Source: an archaeon (GTDB taxonomy: Archaea > Iainarchaeota > Iainarchaeia > Iainarchaeales > JAAZKV01). Taken from it: a stretch of 19,393 nt of DNA. Position 1 is the stretch's first letter. Each line of letters opens with the position of its first letter. The position numbers and the translations under genes were made by a program. The stretch lies in NCBI GenBank assembly GCA_036170245.1, contig JAVHOV010000006.1, forward strand, positions 1-19,393, given 5' to 3'. The notes below the pieces were generated by a model. That model saw only the letters and a program-made list of their open reading frames with translations, did not search any database and was not told the origin of the DNA. Below, piece after piece: positions 1-17,722 of the stretch.

Positions 1-602
1 AATTATTAAATCTTCAAGATGTTGATGCATCAATTGACGGAACAGGATTTTCAAACACTAACCCAAGTCATTATTATCAGAAACGTATTGACGGTAAAGA
101 GGTCAAAAACTATACAAAAACAGTGTTTTTGACCGATAATAAAACCAAATTGATTTTGAATCTAAAAACAACAACTGATCATTCGCATGAAACAAATTAT
201 TTTAAACAAACAGTTTCTGAAGTTGCAGATTGTTTGAAAATGATTCTTGCAGACAAAGGTTACGATTCGACGTCAAACAGAAAATTTTGTTGGAAACAAA
301 ATATCGAAGTTCATATTCCTTTTAGAAAATGGGGTGAATCAAGAATGCAAGAATATGGGACGCCTTCTATACGCAAAATGCATGAAAAGAAATTTAGTAA
401 AATTAAGTACAATCAACGTTCACTTATCGAGTCTGTGAATTCTGCTATCAAACAAACCCTCGGAGGGTTTGTTAGAGCTCGCAGTGCGAGCAATCAACAA
501 AAAACAGTAACAATCAAAGCACTAGCATACAACATCGAACACATCGGACGAATCATAAAAATTAAGCTTTGGATACAAACCAAATAGGATTTCTACAGAA
601 CC
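1..602 (+). mobile_element. IS5-family insertion sequence, right-hand part (left end outside window)
   Basis: DDE transposase ORF is open from the window edge to 587. It is followed immediately by GGATTTCTACAGAACC (587-602), which resembles right terminal inverted repeats of archaeal IS5-type elements (from recall; left IR not visible). Confidence 0.75.
3..587 (+). CDS. IS5-family DDE transposase, 5'-truncated by window
   Basis: Frame is open upstream of the ORF-track start (LLNLQDVDASIDGTGFSNTNPSHYY...). DDE motifs IDGTG, ADKGYD and YNQRSLIESVNSAIK. Confidence 0.9.
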   Translation, partial: LLNLQDVDASIDGTGFSNTNPSHYYQKRIDGKEVKNYTKTVFLTDNKTKLILNLKTTTDHSHETNYFKQTVSEVADCLKMILADKGYDSTSNRKFCWKQNIEVHIPFRKWGESRMQEYGTPSIRKMHEKKFSKIKYNQRSLIESVNSAIKQTLGGFVRARSASNQQKTVTIKALAYNIEHIGRIIKIKLWIQTK

Positions 603-2432: not shown

Positions 2433-2539
2433 CTATTTATAAGTAACCTCTTACGCAAGTATATTTGGAAACACTAAAGGGAATTATTTTTAGCCAAAAA
2501 TATTCTCAAAAAAGTATTTCCACACTTGAGGTGAAAAGG

Positions 2540-3496
2540 ATGGCTGCAAAAAAGATTGAAAGAATAGAAGATTTACCAGGAATTGGAGAAGGAGCTGCTA
2601 AGAAATTAGAAGAAGCAGGATACAAAACGCTTGAAGCAATGGCTGTAGCAAGCACAAGCGAATTAAAAGAAATTGCGGGACTAGGAGAAGGAACTGCAGA
2701 AAAAGCAATCAAAGCTGCAAGAGATGCACTTGATATGGGATTTGAAACAGCTGACATATTAGCTGAAAAAAGAAAACTAATTGGAAAAATAACTACAGGA
2801 AGCAAAGAACTTGATACACTAATTGGCGGAGGAATTGAAACACAATCAATTACCGAAGTATATGGAAAAATGGCAAGCGGAAAATCACAGTGGTGCTTTC
2901 AAACTGCAGTAACTGTACAACTACCAGTTGAACAAGGGGGACTTGCAGGAGGGTGCTTGTATATTGACTCAGAAAATTCTTTCAGACCTGAAAGAGTAAT
3001 ACAAGTTGCAAAGAAATTTGGACTTGATGTTGATGAAATTTTAAAAAACATTCATGTTGCAAGAGCATACAATGCAGAACACCAAATGATTTTGGCTGAC
3101 AAAGCTGCAGAAATGATTCCTGAAAAAAATATTAAATTATTAATAATTGATTCACTCACCGCACAATTCCGTTCAGAATTTGTTGGAAGAGGAACTCTAG
3201 CTGAAAGACAGCAAAAACTAAACAAACACATGAGAACACTACAGAAAATTGCAGAAATGCAAAACGTTGCAATACTTGTAACAAACCAAGTAATGTCAAG
3301 ACCTGATGTTTTGTTTGGAGATCCAACTGAACCAGTTGGAGGAAACGTTGTAGGACACGCAAGCAAAACTCGATTGTATTTAAGAAAAAGTAAAGAAGAC
3401 AAGAGAGTTGCAAAACTAGTTGATTCACCAGCACTGCCTGATGGAGAAGCATTATACAGAATTACTGAAAATGGAATTGAAGATACTGAAGAATAA
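2540..3496 (+). CDS. radA: DNA repair and recombination protein RadA
   Basis: N-terminal HhH (IEDLPGIG), GFETA polymerisation motif, Walker A GKMASGKS, IIDSLTAQFRSEFVGRGTLAERQQKL, RVAKLVDSP. ATG 2540 is preceded by SD GAGGTGA (2528-2534). Confidence 0.97.
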   Translation: MAAKKIERIEDLPGIGEGAAKKLEEAGYKTLEAMAVASTSELKEIAGLGEGTAEKAIKAARDALDMGFETADILAEKRKLIGKITTGSKELDTLIGGGIETQSITEVYGKMASGKSQWCFQTAVTVQLPVEQGGLAGGCLYIDSENSFRPERVIQVAKKFGLDVDEILKNIHVARAYNAEHQMILADKAAEMIPEKNIKLLIIDSLTAQFRSEFVGRGTLAERQQKLNKHMRTLQKIAEMQNVAILVTNQVMSRPDVLFGDPTEPVGGNVVGHASKTRLYLRKSKEDKRVAKLVDSPALPDGEALYRITENGIEDTEE

Positions 3497-3551: not shown

Positions 3552-3571
3552 AACTAAATTTGGTGTTAAAA

Positions 3572-3835
3572 ATGTACAAAATTGATTTTATAGATGAATG
3601 GGACAGACACTTTAAAAAATTTGATAAAAACATCCAGCAAATAATAATTAAAAAAATAGAAAAACAAACCGAAGGAACAAAAACAAGACACTTAAAATTA
3701 GGTATTGACTTTTATGTAGTTGAATTAGGACAATACAGAATAGCAATAAAAATTGAAGAAGAAAAAAGAATTAAAGAAATTTGGTTTGTGGGAAACCACA
3801 AGCAATATGAAAAATGGTACAAAAGCTTCTTTTGA
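3572..3835 (+). CDS. RelE/ParE-superfamily toxin-like protein
   Basis: 87 aa with RelE-type pattern MYKIDF...FKKFDKNIQQIIIKKIEK...GQYRIAIKI...IWFVGNHKQYE. ATG 3572 has GGTG upstream. Confidence 0.75.
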   Translation: MYKIDFIDEWDRHFKKFDKNIQQIIIKKIEKQTEGTKTRHLKLGIDFYVVELGQYRIAIKIEEEKRIKEIWFVGNHKQYEKWYKSFF

Positions 3836-3877
3836 AAGCTTTATATATTTTTTGTATAAAAAACATATGTGATAAAA

Positions 3878-4144
3878 ATGGATACTTTAGTCAACATAAA
3901 CGGCGTTCCCGAAACAGTATTAAATCTGCTAATGGAAAGAGGATATTTCAAAACAAAAGCTGAAGTAATACGTGCAGGAATAATTGAACTTGGAAACAAA
4001 TATGGAATGGATTTGAAAACTCCTGAGGATTTAGAGATGATGCTTGTAGCACTAAGAATAAAAAAAGAAGAGAAGGAAATGAAGAAAAAAGGAAAAAAGG
4101 TTTTAAGCTTAGAGCAAGTAAAGAAAAAATATAATTTAAAATAA
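3878..4144 (+). CDS. Ribbon-helix-helix (CopG/ParD-like) putative antitoxin
   Basis: beta-helix-helix pattern TLVNI...LNLLMERGYFKTKAEVIRAGI and a C-terminal LSLEQVKKKY segment typical of RelB-type antitoxins. Lies next to the toxin and has its own TATA-like TTTATATA at 3840-3847. Confidence 0.7.
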   Translation: MDTLVNINGVPETVLNLLMERGYFKTKAEVIRAGIIELGNKYGMDLKTPEDLEMMLVALRIKKEEKEMKKKGKKVLSLEQVKKKYNLK

Positions 4145-4152
4145 AAAAATAA

Positions 4153-5295
<1,143 letters not shown>

Positions 5296-5397
5296 TTAAA
5301 TGGGGTGAAAAGGATATTTAATTCTACTTTGAAAGAATAAAAAGCAAGAATAAAACAAAACTAAGGGATTTAAGCTTTTTCTAATAAGAATTAAGTT

Positions 5398-5663
<266 letters not shown>

Positions 5664-5811
5664 ATAAAAACAACCAAAACCAGCCATTCTTATTCAAATC
5701 GGCAAAATAAGCCATTATAATCCAAATTAGAAAGAGCTAATTTTTCGTTAAAAAACAAAAGGTTTTTATATTCAAAAAACGTTCAATTAACACCGAAAGG
5801 TGACTTAAAAA

Positions 5812-6448: not shown

Positions 6449-8209
6449 ATGATGCTTATTGACGAAAAAAATGAAAATTACCCTTTTCTTTGGGAACAAC
6501 TGGAAAAACACACCCCAAAAGAATATGAAAGAATAAAAAGAGTGTGTGAAACTCTTTTGAAAAAAGATTTGCCAAAAAGCACAATAGAAGGAATCATACT
6601 AAAAACAATACTAAAAGAAAAAGAACTATCTGCTGAAGAAAAACAAAAATTTAGTTCAGAAGCAAACACTATTGCGGAAAACATGATACAAATAGAAGAA
6701 GTAATTCAAAGAAACTATTCAAAAATTCCAAGCGAAACAATAACCTCAATTATTCTTACTCTTCCAGAAGATTTCCAACCAATAATTGCAGAAATTGAAG
6801 AGACAACTGATGCTTTATTCAATAAAGAAAAAATGAGTTATGAAAACAAATATGCTCAAAAAGCAAGCGAAATATGGCTTCCATTAGCCGTTAAAATTGG
6901 AATGAGCGACTGCGAATGGAAAATACAGGATTTTGCATTTAAAATAATTACCCCCCAAGGTTTTGACAAAATAAAAAAACTTGTAAACAAAACAAGAGAA
7001 GAAAGAGAAGCACTTATTGAAGAAGTAAGAAAAGAAATACAAAAACTTCTTGAAGGAAAAATAAACGCTACAATTGTTGGAAGACCAAAAAGCTTCAAAT
7101 CAATTTTTGATAAACTCAAAAAAACAACATTTGAAAAAATGCATGATATTTATGGGATAAGAATAATCTGTGACAAAGAAAAAGACTGCTATGAAGCACT
7201 CGGGCTTGTCCACTCAAAATATGAAATAATACAAGAAGCTTTTGATGATTATATTTCAAAACCAAAACCAGACGGATACAAAAGCATACACACTGCAGTA
7301 CGAAGAAAAAATGATGTAATTGAGGTGCAAATCAGAACCTGGGCACACCACTTAAGAATCACGGGAGAATCATACTGGACTTACAAAAAAGTTTCAAAAG
7401 ATAATATGTTTGAAAAAGAATTAAGCTGGGAAAGACAATTACTTGAATGGCAAAAAGCTACTGGAAAAGAAAGAACAAACAAAAAAGTGGTTGGAAATAA
7501 ATTATTTATTTTTACTCCAAAAAATGATGCAATTGCTCTCCCTAAAGGCGCAACGGTAATTGATTTTGCTTTTGCAGTACACACGGATGTGGGAAAAAAA
7601 GCGGAGAAAGCAAAAATTAACGGGCAATTTGCACCGCTTGAAACAAAACTAACCAACTTAGACAAAGTAGAAATTATTACTAATGAAAAACCCCAAATGA
7701 AAAAGAATTGGTTGCAAAACGCAGTAACTGAAAAAGCTAAAGGAAAAATTAAAACTTTCTTTGGAATGATTAAAAAGAAAGAAAAAAAAGAAACTAAACT
7801 TGATACAAAAAATACTAAAAAAATAAAAATGGCTGAATGCTGCCACCCCCTGCCCGGAGAAGATGTAATTGGGGTTAAAACAACAAAAAGAAAAATAATT
7901 GTACACAAAAAAGATTGTGTTAATATTTCAAAAATAAGCAAAGACAAATTAGTAAACATTGACTTTGAAAGAGAAAAAGGAGAAACAGGAGTAAGAGTTA
8001 AAGCAATTGACAGACCGGGGCTTTTAGGAGAAATCTTAGAAGAAATCAAAAATTCTCAAGCAACCCTCAAAAACACTAATTTCAAAATAAAAAAGAACGG
8101 ATATGCTGACGCAATCTTTATTTTAGAAATCAAAAGTGCTCAAAAACTTGAGAAACTAATTGAAAAAATTGCAGATATTCCTTCAGTGCAGTTAGCTGAA
8201 AGAATTTAA
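6449..8209 (+). CDS. Long RelA/SpoT homolog: degenerate HD, (p)ppGpp synthetase, TGS, ZFD, ACT/RRM
   Basis: Synthetase motifs GRPKS, DIYGIRII, DDYISKPKPDGYKSIHT, EVQIRT. TGS FTPK...LPKGATVIDFAFAVHTDVG. ZFD AECCHPLPGE...HKKDC. ACT DRPGLLGEI. No HDxxED hydrolase motif. Confidence 0.93.
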   Translation: MMLIDEKNENYPFLWEQLEKHTPKEYERIKRVCETLLKKDLPKSTIEGIILKTILKEKELSAEEKQKFSSEANTIAENMIQIEEVIQRNYSKIPSETITSIILTLPEDFQPIIAEIEETTDALFNKEKMSYENKYAQKASEIWLPLAVKIGMSDCEWKIQDFAFKIITPQGFDKIKKLVNKTREEREALIEEVRKEIQKLLEGKINATIVGRPKSFKSIFDKLKKTTFEKMHDIYGIRIICDKEKDCYEALGLVHSKYEIIQEAFDDYISKPKPDGYKSIHTAVRRKNDVIEVQIRTWAHHLRITGESYWTYKKVSKDNMFEKELSWERQLLEWQKATGKERTNKKVVGNKLFIFTPKNDAIALPKGATVIDFAFAVHTDVGKKAEKAKINGQFAPLETKLTNLDKVEIITNEKPQMKKNWLQNAVTEKAKGKIKTFFGMIKKKEKKETKLDTKNTKKIKMAECCHPLPGEDVIGVKTTKRKIIVHKKDCVNISKISKDKLVNIDFEREKGETGVRVKAIDRPGLLGEILEEIKNSQATLKNTNFKIKKNGYADAIFILEIKSAQKLEKLIEKIADIPSVQLAERI

Positions 8210-10739: not shown

Positions 10740-11390
10740 TCAAGAAAAGCTTTTTAAGGGGGAGCTTAAGAGAGCTTTTGCACGAGCACTTTTATAAGGA
10801 TTTGAAAACCCAATTTCATCCATCCATTTATGCAAATTACCCTTACCATACAAACAAACTTTATAGGTTCTATGCTTTGATAATTTACTAAAATAAGACC
10901 TTATTTTAGTTACTCTAAAACCTTTAATTAAAAGAGTGTTTTGAACTTGTTCTGCAAGAATAATACTAGAAGTAGTTAATTCTAAAGAAGGATATTTTTC
11001 AACACCAGGCTTTTTTGAACAAAAAACACTTCCATCTGTGTCAAATAATCCTTTTAAAACAAACTTTAATAACTCCAAGTCAGACAAAATGAATTCAGGG
11101 ATTTTTGCATTTATTGCTTTTCCTGCCCCTGCAAAGAAATTAAATTCATTAATTAACCTCAAACAATACTCTTTAGAATAAACAGAAATTCTTACACCAT
11201 TAGAACGAAATTTAGAAAACACTGTTTTATTACAAACAATTTGAATAATTGAACACAAATATTCAAAATATGCTTTATCTGTAACAGGATTTCCAGTCAA
11301 TCCAAAAATATACTTTTGACTTGCTAATGAAACAAACCCATCACCAAGTAAAGCACCTAATAACTCACATTCTTCTTTAGAAATATACAT
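10740..11390 (-). CDS. Free-standing two-motif LAGLIDADG endonuclease-like protein
   Basis: Motifs LLGALLGDG and VLKGLFDTDGSV, C-terminal IGFSNPYK; no intein splicing motifs. Confidence 0.85.
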   Translation of the reverse strand: MYISKEECELLGALLGDGFVSLASQKYIFGLTGNPVTDKAYFEYLCSIIQIVCNKTVFSKFRSNGVRISVYSKEYCLRLINEFNFFAGAGKAINAKIPEFILSDLELLKFVLKGLFDTDGSVFCSKKPGVEKYPSLELTTSSIILAEQVQNTLLIKGFRVTKIRSYFSKLSKHRTYKVCLYGKGNLHKWMDEIGFSNPYKSARAKALLSSPLKSFS

Positions 11391-12457: not shown

Positions 12458-12642
12458 TAAAACTAGAATAAAAATAAGCGAGCCCGTAGGGAATCTAACG
12501 CCGCAACCCCTTTCCTAACCAAGCAAAGCTTTTGCTTTGCGGGCCACGCAAAAGTCAATACTTTTGCTAGGAGGTGTTGCATACCCAAACTAAATAAAAC
12601 TAAAACTATAATAAAAATAAGCGAGCCCGTAGGGAATCGAAC
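12458..12642. repeat. 42-bp direct repeat (40/42) containing the tRNA-Lys 3' end, copies at 12458-12499 and 12601-12642
   Basis: TAAAACTA(G/T)AATAAAAATAAGCGAGCCCGTAGGGAATC(T/G)AAC. Confidence 0.85.
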
Positions 12643-12694
12643 CCTAGACACCCAGATTAAGAGTCTGGTGCTCTACCGACTGAGCTACGGGCCC
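12622..12694 (-). tRNA. tRNA-Lys(CTT)
   Basis: Acceptor GGGCCCG/CGGGCTC, anticodon arm CCAGA-CTCTTAA-TCTGG. Confidence 0.95.
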
Positions 12695-12764
12695 TGAATT
12701 ACGGTAATTACTAGTCTTTCTTTAGTAATTACTTTTCAATACTTTTTGAAAAAGTAAATGCAAG

Positions 12765-12837
12765 CGAGCCCGTAGGGAATCGAACCCTAGACACCTGGAT
12801 TAAAAGTCCAGTGCTCTACCGACTGAGCTACGGGCCC
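12765..12837 (-). tRNA. tRNA-Lys(TTT)
   Basis: Same body as the CTT copy, anticodon arm CTGGA-CTTTTAA-TCCAG. Confidence 0.95.
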
Positions 12838-12913
12838 ACCAATTGCATTCCTTTAAAAGAAATTGCCCTGAAAAGATTTTTAAAGATGCGTAAAAAGCAA
12901 GAAAGGCGAAAAA

Positions 12914-13462
12914 ATGGGTAAAAAGGATTTTGTAGTAATAAGATATGGACATAGAGATGTTAGAGATTATAGAGTAACAAGCCACTGTGCATTAGTTTCA
13001 AGAGCATTTGGAGCAAGCAAAATAATTGTCTGCGAGTCAAAAGACCCTATTGCAGAAAACACCCTTAAAGGGGTAACTGAAAGATGGGGGGGAAGCTTCA
13101 AAGTTGAATTTATAGAGAACTGGAAAGATGCAATTGAACAACTAAAAAAGAAAGGATACACAACAGTACACCTAACCATGTACGGAATTCCTATTCAAGA
13201 GATTGATGAAAAAATAAGAACTCTTGATAAAGTTGCAGTACTAATCGGATCACAAAAAGTTGAACGAGAAGTATATGATACGGTAGATTATAATATTTCA
13301 GTAACAAATCAACCGCATAGTGAAATAGCTGCACTGGCAGTTTTCCTTGATCGAGTACAAAAAGGAGAGGAATTAAACAAAGATTTTAAAGGATCACAAA
13401 TACAAATAATTCCACAAGAAAGAGGAAAAAAAGTAATTAGCACAGATAAAAGAAAAAAATAA
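12914..13462 (+). CDS. trm56: tRNA (cytidine(56)-2'-O)-methyltransferase
   Basis: RYGHR..RDYRVTSHCALVSRAFGA, HLTMYG, GSQKV, NQPHSEIAALAVFLDR. Confidence 0.95.
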   Translation: MGKKDFVVIRYGHRDVRDYRVTSHCALVSRAFGASKIIVCESKDPIAENTLKGVTERWGGSFKVEFIENWKDAIEQLKKKGYTTVHLTMYGIPIQEIDEKIRTLDKVAVLIGSQKVEREVYDTVDYNISVTNQPHSEIAALAVFLDRVQKGEELNKDFKGSQIQIIPQERGKKVISTDKRKK

Positions 13463-13507
13463 AAGAATTCTATAGAGTTTAAAAACACTTAGTAAAGGGA
13501 ATAAATT

Positions 13508-14041
13508 ATGCCTTCAAAATCATTAACTGACCTGGTGCTTGTAAAAGAGTTGCTTGACACTATTGGTGGAGAAGACGCAATTACATTAGTTAAATTATGT
13601 GAAAAAAAAAGGTCTATGACAACTGATGAAGAATTGTCAAAAAAGATGAACAAAAAAGTAACAGAAGTGAGGGCAACATTAAACAAATTACATTTTAGAG
13701 GAATTGCATGTTACCAGAAAGCAAGGAACCAAAAAACAGGCTGGTATAATTATACTTGGGAAATAAAGAAAGATAGAATTGCTGATATTATAGAAGAACA
13801 ACAAAAGGAAAACCTTGAAAAATTGAACAAAAAGATGAATTTAGAAGCAGATTATAGTTTATTTGATTGTGCAAAGTGCAATCATAGAGAAGTGTTTGAA
13901 GTAGCGGCAGAATATAACTTTTTGTGCCCAATATGTGGGGGAAGCATGACTTCCGCTAATGACCCAAACAGACAAAAGGAATTGACAGGAAAAATAAAGA
14001 AGATAGAACTAGAAATAGAACTTCTAAAGAAAATGAAGTAG
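13508..14041 (+). CDS. tfe: Transcription factor E alpha subunit
   Basis: Winged helix TDEELSKK...EVRATLNKL, GWYNYTW, Zn ribbon CAKC...FLCPICG; adjacent to trm56 as in many archaea. Confidence 0.93.
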   Translation: MPSKSLTDLVLVKELLDTIGGEDAITLVKLCEKKRSMTTDEELSKKMNKKVTEVRATLNKLHFRGIACYQKARNQKTGWYNYTWEIKKDRIADIIEEQQKENLEKLNKKMNLEADYSLFDCAKCNHREVFEVAAEYNFLCPICGGSMTSANDPNRQKELTGKIKKIELEIELLKKMK

Positions 14042-14201
14042 AAACACTAAAACCTGGACACATTTTATAGTTAGTAGTTGAAAAGAAAGAAGATTGGAAC
14101 AATCTTTTTTAACAAAAATAAAGATAAAAAACAAATAAAACTATAAAAAAACCATTAAAAATGGTTTTTAAGTTATAATAAGGTTAATTAGCCTTAAAAC
14201 T

Positions 14202-14276
14202 AGCGGGGTAGAGCAGCCTGGAGTGCTCGCCGGGCTCATAACCCGGAGGTCGGAGGTTCAAATCCTCTCCCCGCTA
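14202..14276 (+). tRNA. Initiator tRNA-Met(CAT)
   Basis: A1-U72 pair (AGCGGGG/CCCCGCT) and three consecutive G-C pairs closing the anticodon stem CCGGG-CTCATAA-CCCGG. Confidence 0.95.
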
Positions 14277-14607
14277 TAGTGAGTTTTAACCTATTTTTTA
14301 GTTAAATTATCTTAAAAACAACCCCTTTAGTTCCACCACTAATATAATCTAATAAATACGACAACTGACTTAATTTTGCTGTTTTTTTATTCACTCTAAA
14401 AACCCTTTTTTTTAGCCATTTAAAAAACCCCTAAAAAGGGGCTAAAAATGAACTCTCACAACAGAGCAAAAACAACACAACTTCACATACCCCCTAAAAA
14501 GAACTAAATCAACATAGCTCACTTGTTGTAAAATTGACTAAAATTACACAAAACATATTAAAAAACAAAAAAACTAAAAGCCACAAAATTAAAAACAAAC
14601 AAACTAA

Positions 14608-14724
14608 GTAATTACAAGTAATTACACGTAATGAGGTGTAATGAGGATAAGCACAACTCATTACCGTAATGTTTTTAAATCATTACGGTCATTATATTAA
14701 TGACGAGAAAAAAGTGGTAATGAT
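14608..14724. repeat. Cluster of GTAAT(T/G)A(C/G/T) boxes
   Basis: Direct boxes at 14608, 14618 (GTAATTAC), 14628, 14638 (GTAATGAG) at an exact 10-bp period. Inverted boxes at 14657 (CTCATTAC) and 14679 (ATCATTAC). Further boxes at 14666 and 14717, the last overlapping the downstream start codon. Confidence 0.85.
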
Positions 14725-15154
14725 GGGAATTATAGAAACAATCAAACAAATACTTGGAATCAAGCAAAAAGTAGCCCAAGCAAGTGCTCAAACTATCCAA
14801 GTGAGTGAGATTAAGAAAGGGATAGAAGTAAGGTCAATTTGGGACTTCTTACAGTTTAATGAACATACACAAGCTTTTCACCTAGCTAGCGTCATACGCT
14901 TTGATGAATGGGTTACAATGGATGAAGTGAGAAGAAGGATATTTGACCTTTTTCAAGTAGATTATGAAAATGAACGCTCACTTTACCCGTATCTTAAGAC
15001 AATGGTTGATGTAGGACTTATTGAGAGCAATAATATTGGCGGAAAACGCAAATGGAGAAAGAAAGATCTACTAATCAAAATTGAAAAAGAGATAAAAGAA
15101 GAAGAAAAACAAACTCAAACAGAAAAAGAAGCTACAATCCAAGCCCAAAACTAA
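14720..15154 (+). CDS. Winged-helix (PadR/AspA-like) DNA-binding protein
   Basis: VTMDEVRRRI...NERSLYPYLKTMVDVGLIES..GGKRKWR resembles the PadR-type recognition helix and wing (SLYP.L..L...GLI). ATG 14720 preferred over 14669. Confidence 0.7.
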   Translation: MMGIIETIKQILGIKQKVAQASAQTIQVSEIKKGIEVRSIWDFLQFNEHTQAFHLASVIRFDEWVTMDEVRRRIFDLFQVDYENERSLYPYLKTMVDVGLIESNNIGGKRKWRKKDLLIKIEKEIKEEEKQTQTEKEATIQAQN

Positions 15155-15293
15155 TTAAGAGCACAAAAATGCTTCTTTTTTTCATCTTTTTAATTAAAAC
15201 AGATAAAATAAAGGTTCCATTTAACTTCATTTCTTGGACATATTTTGAAATTGATTAACAAAGTTATTTTGCCAATTTAAGCCATTATATGTA

Positions 15294-15386
15294 GTAATTA
15301 CCAAGTTTTGATAAATAAAGAAGGACTTATTTTACAGTAATTACCTTAAAAAGAGTTAAAATTTAAGTTGAAAAAAAAGTAATTAC
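15294..15386. repeat. Three GTAATTAC palindromes spaced 43 and 42 bp
   Basis: Exact copies at 15294, 15337 and 15379. Confidence 0.85.
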
Positions 15387-15392
15387 TCACTT

Positions 15393-15983
15393 TTAAAGTT
15401 GAGCAGGATTTTTTAGTTTCTTAAATAACTCATAGAACTCAATTAAACTCTGTGATTGCTGGTAAGTTTGCTTAAACCATTCAAGATCCACTATCCCTTG
15501 AGCTTCTTTTACTAAGGCTGCTTTATAACCCGAGTCTGCTCCACTTTGAGTTGCTACTCTTTTCATCTCATTAAGAAGTAAGGCTTTACCCTCAACTCCT
15601 TCAACAAATTTTCTGTTTAAAAGAGTCTCAATTGAAACAGCTACTTCTTTTTCAGGAAGATCCTTTTCATTCAAGAAATAAGTACACTTCCAGTCCCCTT
15701 TTTCCTGCCAATGATGGGTTGGATTCTTACCTGTTTTAAAAAATTCTTGTAAAGTTTGAAATGCTACTTGGGGTATTATTACACAATTTTTACCTGGTTG
15801 AATATAAGGGTAATTTGAAAGAATACCTTCTCGGTGATAATGGTAGGTTTTTCCAGATCCTTTATAGACTGCTTGAGTATATCCATAAATTCCGCGAAAA
15901 AGTTTTTGATAAGTATAAGAAGAATGTTTGGTTGAATCAGGAAGAATAAATCGGTATTGAACAAAATATGCTTTTATTGACAT
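15393..15983 (-). CDS. Hypothetical protein, N-terminal region possibly Cas2-like ferredoxin fold
   Basis: Clean 196-aa ORF with G-rich SD. The pattern YFVQYRF...YQKLFRGIYGY...GIL...KNCVIIP...LQEFFK suggests a Cas2/VapD-like beta-alpha-beta-beta-alpha-beta fold (by-eye inference). Confidence 0.6.
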   Translation of the reverse strand: MSIKAYFVQYRFILPDSTKHSSYTYQKLFRGIYGYTQAVYKGSGKTYHYHREGILSNYPYIQPGKNCVIIPQVAFQTLQEFFKTGKNPTHHWQEKGDWKCTYFLNEKDLPEKEVAVSIETLLNRKFVEGVEGKALLLNEMKRVATQSGADSGYKAALVKEAQGIVDLEWFKQTYQQSQSLIEFYELFKKLKNPAQL

Positions 15984-16235
15984 TTTAACACCCACCCCAC
16001 GCTTCCATTACTACCTTATAATAATATAATAAAATATTTCTTATGTATAGTATATATACATATTGTTATTAGTTACTAATTCTTTCTTTTTCTTTTTTTA
16101 GGTAAAAGGAAAGGGTGTCCAAGAAATGAGGAGATTTTTAAGGGTTAAAAAAAGGGTTGAAAAGAGATTAAAAATTGAAAAAATAGGTTCTAAAGTTAAG
16201 GTAGGTTAATTAAAAAATGAAAGTAAGGGGAGGCC

Positions 16236-16559
16236 TTACCTTCTAGAATATTTATATCTCAATTGAGAAGCAGCAGTACTTTGTTCTTGTGCTTCTTCTT
16301 TAGGCTGTTCTGTAAAAGGTATTTCTCTGCTTGAAACAATAATAATATCCTTTACTGACTTAACATTCCTGTATGGAATGCTTTTCTCAGCCAAGATCTT
16401 CTTTGCATCTGATTTAGTTTTAACTTTCAAAGGCTCAGTAGTAATGGTTTCAAGTTTACCTTTTTCAAGGTTTATGATTATATCATACACTTTACCTTTA
16501 TACCCAGCTTCAAAGTCATAAACATCCATGCCGAAAAGTTTTGACAATCTAACGCTCAT
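16236..16559 (-). CDS. PRC-barrel protein (CdpB-like)
   Basis: LSKLFGMDVY...GKVYDIIINLEKGKL...IPYRNVKSVKDIIIV; SD GGAGG upstream. Confidence 0.85.
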   Translation of the reverse strand: MSVRLSKLFGMDVYDFEAGYKGKVYDIIINLEKGKLETITTEPLKVKTKSDAKKILAEKSIPYRNVKSVKDIIIVSSREIPFTEQPKEEAQEQSTAASQLRYKYSRR

Positions 16560-16771
16560 AAATAATCCTCCCTTAGAGTTTTTGTTACGCTAAGAAAGAC
16601 GGTGAAGTATTTAAATCTATTCCTTAAAATAAAAAAACAATCTTTAGTTTGGAAAACAAAATAACAGCGCATATACATAATTTGTTGGGTTTTTTAAGTT
16701 TTAAAATAATGTTTTTTGGACTTGACTTTTATTAAAGGAACAGTGGGGGGTAAGGGGCGGAGGTTAATTTT

Positions 16772-17722
16772 TTACAATTTATCAAGAGGACTAACAACTT
16801 TTTTGAGTTGATCATTTGCAACACTAGTATAAATTTGGGTGGTGTTTAGACTTGAGTGACCTAAAAGAGTTTGAATATATCTAATATTAGTTCCAGCTTC
16901 AAGTAAGTGAGTAGCATAAGAATGTCTTAAACAGTGGGGGGTAACATGTTTGTTTATCCCAGCATTAATCGCTGCTGCTCTTACAATTCTTTGAATTGTA
17001 TCAGTAGTGATTGGCTTTCCATTTTTTTTAGAAAAAACAAATTCTGATTGAATTTTCTTTTTTGCCAAATATTTTTTTATTCCATGAATCCACTCTTTTG
17101 AAAGAATAATAATTCTGTCTTTATTTCCTTTTCCTGCTCTAACTGTTGCAGTTCTCTCTTTAAAATTTAGTTCCTCAACTTTAATTTTAGTTACTTCACT
17201 TACTCTACACCCAGATCCATACATGAATTGCAGCATTAAGCGGTTTCTTCCAAAGTGTGTGCTTTCAAATAATTTTTTTATTTCGTCTCGAGTAAGAACT
17301 TTTGGCAAGGATTTAGCTTTTTTTGGGATTTTAATTTCTTCAAGAATTGCTTTCATATGATTTTTTTTAAACAAGTATTGCATTGCAGCATGAACCAAAG
17401 ACAAAGTTGCATTATTACAACCAACTTCTTTTTTATGGGCAAGGTAGGAAATCAGATCCTGTTTTACTAAAGCCGCAAGGGGTTTATTGATAAAATAAAT
17501 CATTTCGCGCGTGTAAATAAGATACATTTTGATTGTTTTAGAAGAATAGCCTTCAACAATAAGTTCTTGTTTTAATTGAGTTAAAATTGATTCAAAATTT
17601 GGGTTTAAAATAAGCTGATTAGTTTGTGCTTGAGTTAAAGGAATAATTTCTTTAGTGGAAGAAGGAAGGGGGAGAGTGGTGGCAATTTGTTGAGTAGGTT
17701 GTTCTGGTAGATTATCCTGCAT
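16772..17722 (-). CDS. Tyrosine recombinase, XerA/XerC-D-like
   Basis: Intact catalytic set: GCRVSE (R), GKGNKDR (K), HCLRHS (HxxR), LLGHS (H), TQIYT (Y). N-terminal core-binding domain GYSSKTIKMY. Confidence 0.92.
   Translation of the reverse strand: MQDNLPEQPTQQIATTLPLPSSTKEIIPLTQAQTNQLILNPNFESILTQLKQELIVEGYSSKTIKMYLIYTREMIYFINKPLAALVKQDLISYLAHKKEVGCNNATLSLVHAAMQYLFKKNHMKAILEEIKIPKKAKSLPKVLTRDEIKKLFESTHFGRNRLMLQFMYGSGCRVSEVTKIKVEELNFKERTATVRAGKGNKDRIIILSKEWIHGIKKYLAKKKIQSEFVFSKKNGKPITTDTIQRIVRAAAINAGINKHVTPHCLRHSYATHLLEAGTNIRYIQTLLGHSSLNTTQIYTSVANDQLKKVVSPLDKL

What the first reader, a model, noticed from the sequence alone, without database searches (positions are those of the whole stretch)
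14281..16235. Candidate replication origin without a neighbouring orc1/cdc6, marked by a strand-bias switch
Seen: intergenic DNA at 14281-14600 is C/A-rich on the plus strand (CCCC runs, very few G), whereas 16100-16235 and 16741-16765 are G-rich. Codon third positions appear to flip too. Left-side minus-strand genes (tgt, KaiC-like) favour G/T endings (aag, cag, tat, ggt), while the right-side minus-strand methyltransferase favours C/A endings (aac, acc, tac, ccc); plus-strand genes mostly show the mirror pattern, though trm56-tfe are mixed. Established: leading strands are usually G/T-rich, so a C-to-G switch on the plus strand implies diverging forks. A very AT-rich tract at 16016-16100 could be the unwinding element. 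Archaeal origins normally sit beside orc1/cdc6, but none is in this window; the interval holds a wHTH gene, an unknown gene and repeat boxes next to a tRNA. This recalls the WhiP-type origin of Sulfolobus (oriC3). Inference: an origin using a non-canonical local initiator or accessory factor.
Basis: partly seen in the sequence, partly recalled or inferred. Interest (0 to 1): 0.85.

Follow-up and report, generated by a model that had tools for sequence, protein, structure and literature searches.

The report
Replication origin far from its initiator
In a group of tiny uncultured archaea (Iainarchaeota), the chromosome's strand bias changes at a conserved pair of inverted DNA boxes that bracket a predicted cell-division gene, so this is likely where DNA replication starts, probably recognised by an Orc1/Cdc6 initiator whose gene lies tens of kilobases away and not, as is usual, next door.

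Summary
Inside the window codon bias does not flip: it fades from about -0.12 to -0.04 per codon, and the methyltransferase stays G/T-class. Relatives supply the proof of place. The change point lies within 4 kb of this locus in 9 of 11 genomes. The intergenic switch here ranks 1 to 5 of 61-170 positions in 5 of 5 long contigs, against 27-138 at cdc6. rRNA genes point away in 5 of 5, which favours origin over terminus. Two inverted ORB-like boxes with G-strings (15993 minus, 16729 plus) bracket an AT-rich tract and a PRC-barrel gene in 32 of 34 loci. Their core recurs in the cdc6-1 promoter in this family. The boxes persist in genomes where the winged-helix gene was not found, so a WhiP-like initiator is unlikely. 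Best reading: an origin served by Cdc6-1 in trans; binding is untested. The scan noted this locus before on other DNA, with conflicting verdicts.

The parts
15993..16014 (-). Box A: ORB-like element (consensus ATTAGTGGAAGTGTGGGG; half-dyad AGTGGAA plus G-string), G-string pointing outward; it overlaps the ribosome-binding/start region of the unknown gene
   Evidence: Best PWM hit of the genome; present in 34 of 34 loci, but these were the training set
16729..16750 (+). Box B: inverted partner box just behind the xerA stop codon, G-string pointing outward
   Evidence: Second-best PWM hit of the genome; not in the training set, found at >=14 bits in 32 of 34 loci, 515-1134 bp from box A, median 730
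16016..16100 (.). AT-rich tract just inside box A, candidate unwinding element (inferred); holds a TTATGT-N11-ACATAA-type palindrome at 16041-16063
   Evidence: 88% AT, top 0.05% of 85-mers; palindrome pattern in 23 of 34 loci, its ACATAA half in 34 of 34
16211..16232 (+). Weak inner box that would pair with box A across the AT-rich tract
   Evidence: 11 bits; an inner box at >=9 bits occurs in only 5 of 34 loci
16236..16559 (-). Stand-alone PRC-barrel protein gene lying between boxes A and B; such proteins act in archaeal cell division (inferred for this one)
   Evidence: PF05239 E=8.5e-9; solved PRC-barrel chains 8qzo/8onw E=1.8e-7; matches in 142 of 151 genomes; family role from passages of bioRxiv 10.1101/2023.03.28.534520
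16560..16728 (.). Second AT-rich spacer inside box B, with TTATGTA half-site(s)
   Evidence: 75% AT; TTATGTA in 28 of 32 xer-PRC intervals
14321..14342 (-). Box C: third, weaker copy in the tRNA-wHTH spacer, same orientation as box A
   Evidence: 12.9 bits here; a copy at >=11 bits in 23 of 30 loci
14608..14702 (.). Array of GTAATTAC palindromes and half-sites over the promoter of the winged-helix gene
   Evidence: Densest cluster in G000, G018 and G038, tied second in G051; at least one GTAATTAC in 30 of 30 loci; alignment A1
14720..15154 (+). Single-copy winged-helix protein, restricted to this order in the genomes searched; start most likely 14720, not 14669
   Evidence: 114 of 125 genomes of the order, 0 of 7 of other orders; model pLDDT 77, generic winged helix, best Z 9.2 tied among Fur/PadR; start from alignment
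15294..15386 (.). Three further GTAATTAC sites between two converging genes, where no promoter is expected
   Evidence: present in only 4 of 32 such intervals in a wider set, so not a conserved part
15393..15995 (-). Conserved unknown protein (about 196 aa; predicted ferredoxin-like N-domain and helical C-domain), always next to box A in this order
   Evidence: 34 of 34 loci; model pLDDT 89; best VIA Z 7.0, not diagnostic; no Pfam or NCBIfam family; 83 representatives at E<=0.001
16772..17722 (-). Archaeal XerA recombinase gene on the outer side of box B
   Evidence: NF040815 248 bits, above cut-off 220; in 32 of 34 loci
14201..14277 (+). tRNA-Met(CAT), initiator type by its anticodon-stem G-C pairs (read from the sequence)
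   Evidence: in 28 of 30 loci
12914..14041 (+). trm56 and tfe, the conserved left flank; strong codon polarity ends after trm56

Best explanation
This locus is likely the single main chromosomal replication origin of Iainarchaeota, and Orc1/Cdc6-1 made from a distant gene would bind its two inverted ORB-like boxes (A at 15993, B at 16729) in trans. Shown: the strand-composition change maps here in relatives, the box pair is conserved and nearly unique in each genome, cdc6 genes lie 46-175 kb away in five long contigs, and the box core recurs in the cdc6-1 promoter in this family. Inferred from known archaeal origins: each box-bound Cdc6 would load one MCM hexamer inward, the AT-rich tracts inside the boxes would melt, and forks would leave in both directions with the G/T-rich strand leading. 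The G-string-less copies in the cdc6-1 promoter would be autoregulatory sites. Unusually, a whole PRC-barrel gene lies between the boxes (median 730 bp apart). The winged-helix protein most likely binds the GTAATTAC array at its own promoter and is a later, order-level addition (autoregulator or origin accessory factor), not the initiator.
For: Place: least-squares change point of orientation-corrected third-position keto bias within 4 kb of the wHTH start in 9 of 11 genomes, from 4 of 5 families. True sign flip in G051, G038, G025 and G058. Intergenic T-A skew, corrected for flanking gene orientation, is negative on the tfe side in 9 of 9 genomes and positive on the xer side in 7 of 9. The intergenic switch at the boxes ranks 1/163, 2/170, 5/144, 1/61 and 2/80; at cdc6 genes it ranks 69, 138, 71, 35 and 27. 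Own genome: of 33 of 43 contigs placed on G018, all 17 on the tfe side have one polarity, and 9 of 12 two-strand contigs on the xer side have the opposite sign. Direction: 16S genes point away from the locus in 5 of 5 genomes and 23S in 4 of 4 found, on the G/T-rich strand where tested. Architecture: boxes A and B are the two best hits in G000 and an inverted pair in 32 of 34 loci. [quoted passage not shown] The box shares AGTGGAA and a G-string with Pyrococcus ORB1 (PMC1904270 passage). Link to cdc6-1: its promoter has the best core score of 790 upstream regions in G000, with a core also in G018, G019 and G051. An inverted core pair lies 13-176 bp upstream of cdc6-1 in 7 of 8 relatives of this family. 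No misassembly: one unbroken contig covers 12791-18000 in 4 of 4 runs, which may be the source of this DNA, and synteny is shared.
Against: No binding, origin mapping or coverage gradient was measured. In the window, and in G018, G019 and G009, codon bias only weakens on the xer side and does not reverse; G019 stays at -0.3 to -0.95 of the tfe-arm value for 115 kb. The two arms are unequal and this is unexplained. G060 gives 12 kb with a wide interval, G026 is uninformative, and bootstrap intervals are wide for G018, G019 and G038. On codon bias the boxes rank only 16/163 in G018 and 14/138 in G038. The 5' TTCC half of the ORB dyad is not kept. The cdc6-1 promoter link is family-limited: none in G038 and 0 of 72 genomes outside the family with the pattern; only G051 and G100 show other forms. 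Box A overlaps the start region of the unknown gene, so part of its conservation may be a ribosome-binding site. Resolution is 2-4 kb, so skew cannot separate the boxes from the GTAATTAC array. Gene orientation is mixed: codons pointing away are 0.32-0.79 per arm and above 0.6 on both arms only in G038. Three of the five rRNA tests are one genus with rRNA near the antipode. The published origin of one Diapherotrites genome was placed next to cdc6 (PMC5905446 passages); I did not test that genome.
Confidence: 0.6

Rival explanations
1. It is the origin, but the boxes are read by the lineage-specific unknown protein (15393-15995), acting as initiator or as a cell-cycle regulator that also controls its own gene and cdc6-1.
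For: Box A overlaps this gene's start in 34 of 34 loci. The gene stays beside box and PRC in G172 and G175 of another order. Its N-domain has many invariant aromatic and basic residues. The box lacks half of the ORB dyad.
Against: The predicted fold is a generic ferredoxin-like domain with no AAA+ or winged-helix part. G177 has a box pair around PRC with no match to this protein (94% complete). G-strings are kept at the locus and dropped in the cdc6-1 promoter, as expected for ORB versus mini-ORB sites.
Confidence: 0.14
2. One reading: the winged-helix protein is the local initiator and the GTAATTAC array is its iteron cluster.
For: The gene is single-copy in 114 of 125 genomes of the order. 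The array is the densest such cluster in the genome. Raw keto-skew minima fall at the wHTH gene in G051, G018, G019 and G015. Extra sites lie downstream of the gene in some genomes.
Against: It was not found in 7 of 7 genomes of other orders, of which G172 and G175 keep box/PRC/box. The protein has one small winged helix, while WhiP is described with two (preprint passage). The raw minimum is expected there because gene orientation flips at that junction. The array sits on the gene's own promoter. Downstream sites occur in only 4 of 32 loci.
Confidence: 0.1
3. It is the replication terminus or a dif site served by the adjacent XerA, with the A/C-rich strand leading.
For: xerA is adjacent in 32 of 34 loci. 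Archaeal forks are believed to end near dif (PMC4640148 passage). Long co-oriented gene runs on C2 and C40 carry A/C-class codons.
Against: rRNA genes would all be head-on. The ATAA-N6-TTAT core of Thermococcales dif is not conserved: scattered hits in 12 of 34 loci at unrelated places, none in this window's locus. XerA was not found beside the pair in G172 or G175. The architecture is ORB-like, and G/T-leading is the general rule (own knowledge).
Confidence: 0.07
4. It is no origin: a conserved cell-cycle gene cluster with shared operator boxes, and the composition step reflects old inversions or expression differences between the flanks.
For: The incomplete reversal in genus g1; a second codon-polarity change near 162 kb in G018 with no box; boxes at promoters of cdc6-1 and the unknown gene.
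Against: The step recurs at the same gene cluster in four families with different flanks, on both gene strands and in intergenic DNA. In G018 one polarity runs unbroken for 520 kb from this point. Box B and box C sit behind a stop codon and behind a tRNA.
Confidence: 0.09

Closest known systems
Orc1/Cdc6-dependent oriC1-type origins (Pyrococcus oriC, Sulfolobus oriC1, Haloarcula hispanica oriC1)
   Same: Inverted boxes with AGTGGAA and a terminal G-string, arranged minus/plus around AT-rich DNA; switch of strand bias.
   Different: The 5' TTCC half-dyad is missing, the G-string follows 4 nt after GGAA against about 11 in Pyrococcus ORB1, the boxes are 515-1134 bp apart with a protein gene between them, and no cdc6 is adjacent.
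ORB origins remote from cdc6: Thermococcus litoralis and T. sibiricus (453 and 349 kb; PMC4640148 passage), Hyperthermus butylicus oriC (preprint passage)
   Same: An ORB-type origin without an adjacent initiator gene, so action in trans has precedent.
   Different: Those are single-species exceptions. Here the separation is the rule across an order and is seen in sister orders, with a fixed gene neighbourhood of its own.
Sulfolobus oriC3 / WhiP
   Same: A winged-helix gene and repeats near an origin with no cdc6 next door.
   Different: oriC3 has neither ORB nor mini-ORB (PMC4010727 passage), whereas this locus has ORB-like boxes. The winged-helix protein is small, single-domain and narrower in range than the boxes.
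XerA/dif
   Same: An archaeal XerA gene at a skew switch.
   Different: No conserved dif-like core was found, and the polarity evidence points to divergence of forks.

Membership tests
Orc1/Cdc6-dependent archaeal oriC | Strand-asymmetry switch with forks diverging | tested here: met
   reversal is full in 4 genomes and partial in genus g1
Orc1/Cdc6-dependent archaeal oriC | Inverted box pair, minus then plus, G-strings outward | tested here: met
   32 of 34 loci; layout compared with PMC3936714 passage
Orc1/Cdc6-dependent archaeal oriC | Canonical ORB dyad with both TTCC and GAA motifs | tested here: not met
   PWM consensus keeps AGTGGAA but has ATTA in place of TTCC; canonical motif from PMC1904270 passage
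Orc1/Cdc6-dependent archaeal oriC | AT-rich tract between the boxes | tested here: met
   88% AT at 16016-16100, top 0.05%; unwinding itself untested
Orc1/Cdc6-dependent archaeal oriC | cdc6 gene adjacent (usual, not obligatory) | tested here: not met
   46-175 kb away in 5 of 5 long contigs; other contigs in G000
Orc1/Cdc6-dependent archaeal oriC | Cdc6 binds the boxes and loads MCM; initiation mapped | not testable with these tools
   Only indirect: box core in cdc6-1 promoters of family f1
WhiP-type origin (Sulfolobus oriC3) | Adjacent WhiP homolog with two winged-helix domains | tested here: inconclusive
   144-aa protein with one generic winged helix; no NCBIfam hit, one weak PadR hit in Pfam; no direct comparison with WhiP was run
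WhiP-type origin (Sulfolobus oriC3) | No ORB or mini-ORB at the origin | tested here: not met
   ORB-like pair present
WhiP-type origin (Sulfolobus oriC3) | IR(+)/ucm/IR(-) motifs | not tested
   Motifs seen in preprint passage; not scanned
XerA/dif terminus | Archaeal XerA gene | tested here: met
   NF040815 above cut-off
XerA/dif terminus | Conserved 11-6-11 dif site at the locus | tested here: inconclusive
   One core pattern (ATAA-N6-TTAT) is not conserved in 34 loci; a divergent dif was not excluded
XerA/dif terminus | Converging forks, rRNA pointing toward the site | tested here: not met
   rRNA genes point away in 5 of 5 genomes

The most novel reading that the evidence does not exclude
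Iainarchaeota use a gene-spanning origin. Two half-dyad boxes about 730 bp apart load helicases that must meet across a transcribed cell-division (PRC-barrel) gene, coupling initiation to divisome expression. Two lineage-specific proteins encoded on the spot (a ferredoxin-fold protein at box A and a winged-helix protein with a parS-like array) act as initiation or segregation factors. The unequal strand bias of the two arms reflects asymmetric firing.
Probability: 0.18. Interest if true: 0.82.

Novelty: new variant of a known kind. Interest (0 to 1): 0.6.

Why it matters
It gives a concrete, testable origin for a DPANN phylum where my searches found only a cdc6-adjacent placement from raw GC skew (PMC5905446; searches). 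If right, rotating or interpreting these genomes at cdc6 misplaces the origin by tens to more than 100 kb, and initiator-adjacent predictors would miss it. It also offers a variant origin box, an origin with a gene between its boxes, and two orphan proteins with specific DNA sites to test in vitro. Supplements of the Ori-Finder-Arch preprint (Tables S1, S4) were not seen and may list predictions for this phylum.

Tried and rejected
Raw GC skew of the window follows gene orientation and does not locate a switch. In G038 the raw GC minimum of the sampled 388 kb is at 798 kb, while T-A and keto minima are at 764-766 kb, beside the boxes at 769 kb; cdc6 ranks for G038 could not be computed because of a sampling gap. 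Per-gene fine mapping across orthologs was too noisy to place the switch among wHTH, unknown, PRC and xer (medians -0.43, -0.66, +0.08, -0.28). Repeat finding missed the boxes. Rfam found only tRNAs and SRP RNA. The protein atlas gave no named family for either orphan. Foldseek gave no match at E<=0.001 for either model, and VIA matches were generic; my guesses of AspA-like and Cas2-like folds did not appear in the listed rows, which excludes neither. No RNA holder was listed, and contig depths cannot give a peak-to-trough ratio. A second origin near G018 162 kb was considered; no box or tRNA is there. A link of the TTATGT palindrome to the Sulfolobus ucm/UBP was read up (PMC12141716 passages) but not tested. 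DNA around cdc6-1 outside the genomes already held was not obtained, so promoter evidence outside family f1 is thin. No complex prediction was run.
Full report
Setting. The window is contig C6:1-19393 of an 867-kb, 43-contig, 86% complete genome. Homolog names place it in Iainarchaeota/Diapherotrites. The finding's interval holds tRNA-Met, a winged-helix gene, an unknown gene and, just beyond, a PRC-barrel gene and xerA. Both cdc6 genes are on other contigs.

Checking the observation. The genome has a strong strand-linked split of synonymous codons into G/T-ending and A/C-ending classes. In the window, however, polarity does not reverse. It is -0.06 to -0.16 per codon up to trm56 and -0.02 to -0.07 from tfe to the methyltransferase, which is still G/T-class; the sign turns only after 19.6 kb on C6. 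The step is real (p=5e-5) but cannot be placed more finely than 13.5-19.6 kb from this contig.

Relatives fix the place. The winged-helix gene is single-copy in 50 of 61 relatives searched. In the 30 best-matching loci, tfe, tRNA-Met and the unknown gene are each present in 28 of 30 and GTAATTAC in 30 of 30. I fetched long stretches of ten relatives: 800 kb each of G051 and G018, 388 kb of G038, 200 kb each of G019 and G015, and 44-80 kb of five more. The change point of orientation-corrected codon bias lies within 4 kb of the locus in 9 of 11 genomes; G060 gives 12 kb and G026 ends 4 kb past it. Bootstrap intervals are tight in G051, G015, G009, G025 and G058, and wide in G018, G019 and G038. 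Intergenic T-A skew within 50 kb is negative on the tfe side in 9 of 9 genomes and positive on the xer side in 7 of 9. A sliding 30-kb switch statistic ranks the boxes 1, 2, 5, 1 and 2 of 61-170 positions on intergenic DNA and 1, 16, 14, 4 and 2 on codons; cdc6 genes rank 27-138 and 35-127. cdc6 genes are 46-175 kb away in these five contigs. Placing 33 of G000's 43 contigs on G018, all 17 on the tfe side share one polarity; on the xer side 9 of 12 two-strand contigs have the opposite sign, one is mixed, two are weakly the same, and three one-strand contigs are weakly the same.

Origin or terminus. 16S genes point away from the locus in 5 of 5 genomes and 23S in 4 of 4 found; three of these genomes are one genus with rRNA near the antipode. 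G/T-rich leading strands are the general rule (own knowledge). In G051 the bias is strongest near the locus and opposite signs meet diffusely about half a genome away. The dif core pattern I tested is not conserved. Gene orientation supports divergence clearly only in G038.

Aligned spacers show a box, consensus ATTAGTGGAAGTGTGGGG, at the start of the unknown gene. A matrix trained on that copy alone finds an inverted partner behind xerA in 32 of 34 loci, 515-1134 bp away, with the PRC-barrel gene between. In G000 the two are the best hits of 8 at >=13 bits. A third copy lies behind the tRNA in 23 of 30 loci. A strict pattern search of 54 genomes showed both boxes around PRC in at least 19, counted by eye, with 30 rows not listed. 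The layout, C-run on the left and G-run on the right of AT-rich DNA, is that of H. hispanica oriC1 (PMC3936714, passages) and of the ORB(-)/DUE/ORB(+) pattern (bioRxiv 10.64898/2026.08.15.744077, passages). Against Pyrococcus ORB1 (PMC1904270, passages) the box keeps AGTGGAA and a G-string but lacks TTCC, so it works like an ORB but fails one membership feature.

Who binds the boxes. The core without G-string scores highest, of 790 gene-upstream regions in G000, in the cdc6-1 promoter (shared with its divergent neighbour). It is also there in G018, G019 and G051, not in G038, and not before cdc6-2 in the three full promoters examined. An inverted core pair lies 13-176 bp upstream of cdc6-1 in 7 of 8 relatives of this family and in 0 of 72 other genomes with that pattern; G100 has a full box 18 bp upstream. 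Self-regulation of initiators through their own sites is known for DnaA and proposed for Cdc6 (own knowledge; search, listing only). The winged-helix profile matches 114 of 125 genomes of the order and 0 of 7 of other orders. In 5 of those 7 tested, G172 and G175 keep unknown gene, box, PRC, box in tight order; G177 and G176 have looser pairs; G171 has no clear locus; XerA was found in one, on another contig; cdc6 is on other contigs in all five. So the oldest core is box-PRC-box with the unknown gene, and the winged-helix gene and xerA are narrower. The winged-helix model is a generic single domain; the unknown protein is a generic ferredoxin-like plus helical fold with few relatives.

Mechanism. 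Shown: position, boxes, distance from cdc6, promoter copies. Inferred: Cdc6-1 binds both boxes in trans and loads two MCM hexamers inward, and the AT-rich tracts melt. With boxes about 730 bp apart the hexamers would have to slide together, as modelled for yeast synthetic origins (PMC12440816, passages), or one box pairs with a weak inner site, seen in only 5 of 34 loci. PRC-barrel proteins act in archaeal division (bioRxiv 10.1101/2023.03.28.534520, passages); whether this one does is untested. The GTAATTAC array most likely serves the winged-helix protein at its own promoter.

Unexplained. In genus g1 and G058 the tfe arm is strongly biased and the xer arm weakly; in G018, G019 and G009 codons on the xer arm keep the tfe-arm sign while intergenic DNA is neutral or reversed. 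High expression of co-oriented operons, old inversions or asymmetric firing could each contribute; I could not separate them.

What is known. Origins away from cdc6 are reported for T. litoralis, T. sibiricus (PMC4640148, passages) and H. butylicus. Sulfolobus oriC3 has no ORB (PMC4010727, passages; PMC5333045, passages). [quoted passage not shown] A recent DPANN preprint rotates genomes to ORC1/Cdc6 as a processing step (10.64898/2026.05.13.725050, passages). Most subscription papers and preprint supplements were not searchable. Earlier notes of this scan on other genomes read the locus as a likely origin, as an operator array, or as a boundary motif; the skew mapping, rRNA test, cdc6-promoter link and sister-order comparison here are my own tests.

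Verdict. Probably an origin (about 0.84 across the three origin readings), most likely an Orc1/Cdc6-type origin served in trans (0.6): a new variant of a known kind, interest 0.6.

Noticed in passing
window 16041-16063 and 16560-16728: A second conserved motif: a TTATGT-N11-ACATAA-type palindrome just inside box A (23 of 34 loci) and TTATGTA half-sites inside box B (28 of 32); the strict form occurs once in G000. Binder unknown.
   Followed up: partly
window 6449-8209 (+): RelA/SpoT-type protein with synthetase, TGS and ACT domains in an archaeon.
   Followed up: no
window 4153-5292 (-): Queuine tRNA-ribosyltransferase (TGT) family protein, E=7e-125; bacterial or archaeal type not tested.
   Followed up: no
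window 10740-11390 (-): LAGLIDADG-like endonuclease gene directly upstream of tRNA-Phe.
   Followed up: no
window 12470-12840: Two tRNA-Lys genes with a degenerate tRNA-like piece before them and two GTAATTAC sites between them (12704, 12725).
   Followed up: no
window 2465-3496 (+): RadA-like gene (by eye, not scanned) about 12.5 kb from the boxes; Thermococcus oriC lies beside radA.
   Followed up: no
window 3-587, 3560-4144, 5394-5667: DDE transposase fragment at the contig start, a RelE/ParE-like plus RHH pair, and the SRP RNA gene.
   Followed up: no
G000 C6:19394-19915, just beyond the window: An N gap with the same 31 bases on both sides (likely a scaffolding overlap), then a small OB-fold/SSB-like gene (by eye) 3 kb from box B.
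   Followed up: no
G018 C1 about 162 kb (L098): A second change of codon polarity with no box and no tRNA nearby.
   Followed up: partly
G018 C1:525124; G065 C1:46592; G068 C9:93516: Isolated strong boxes away from the locus in some genomes; possible titration or regulatory sites.
   Followed up: no
G051 C1:980100-980950, G015, G018, G019: Extra genes are tolerated inside the cluster (between wHTH and the unknown gene, or between xer and box B), but none lay between boxes A and B other than PRC in the loci I read.
   Followed up: partly
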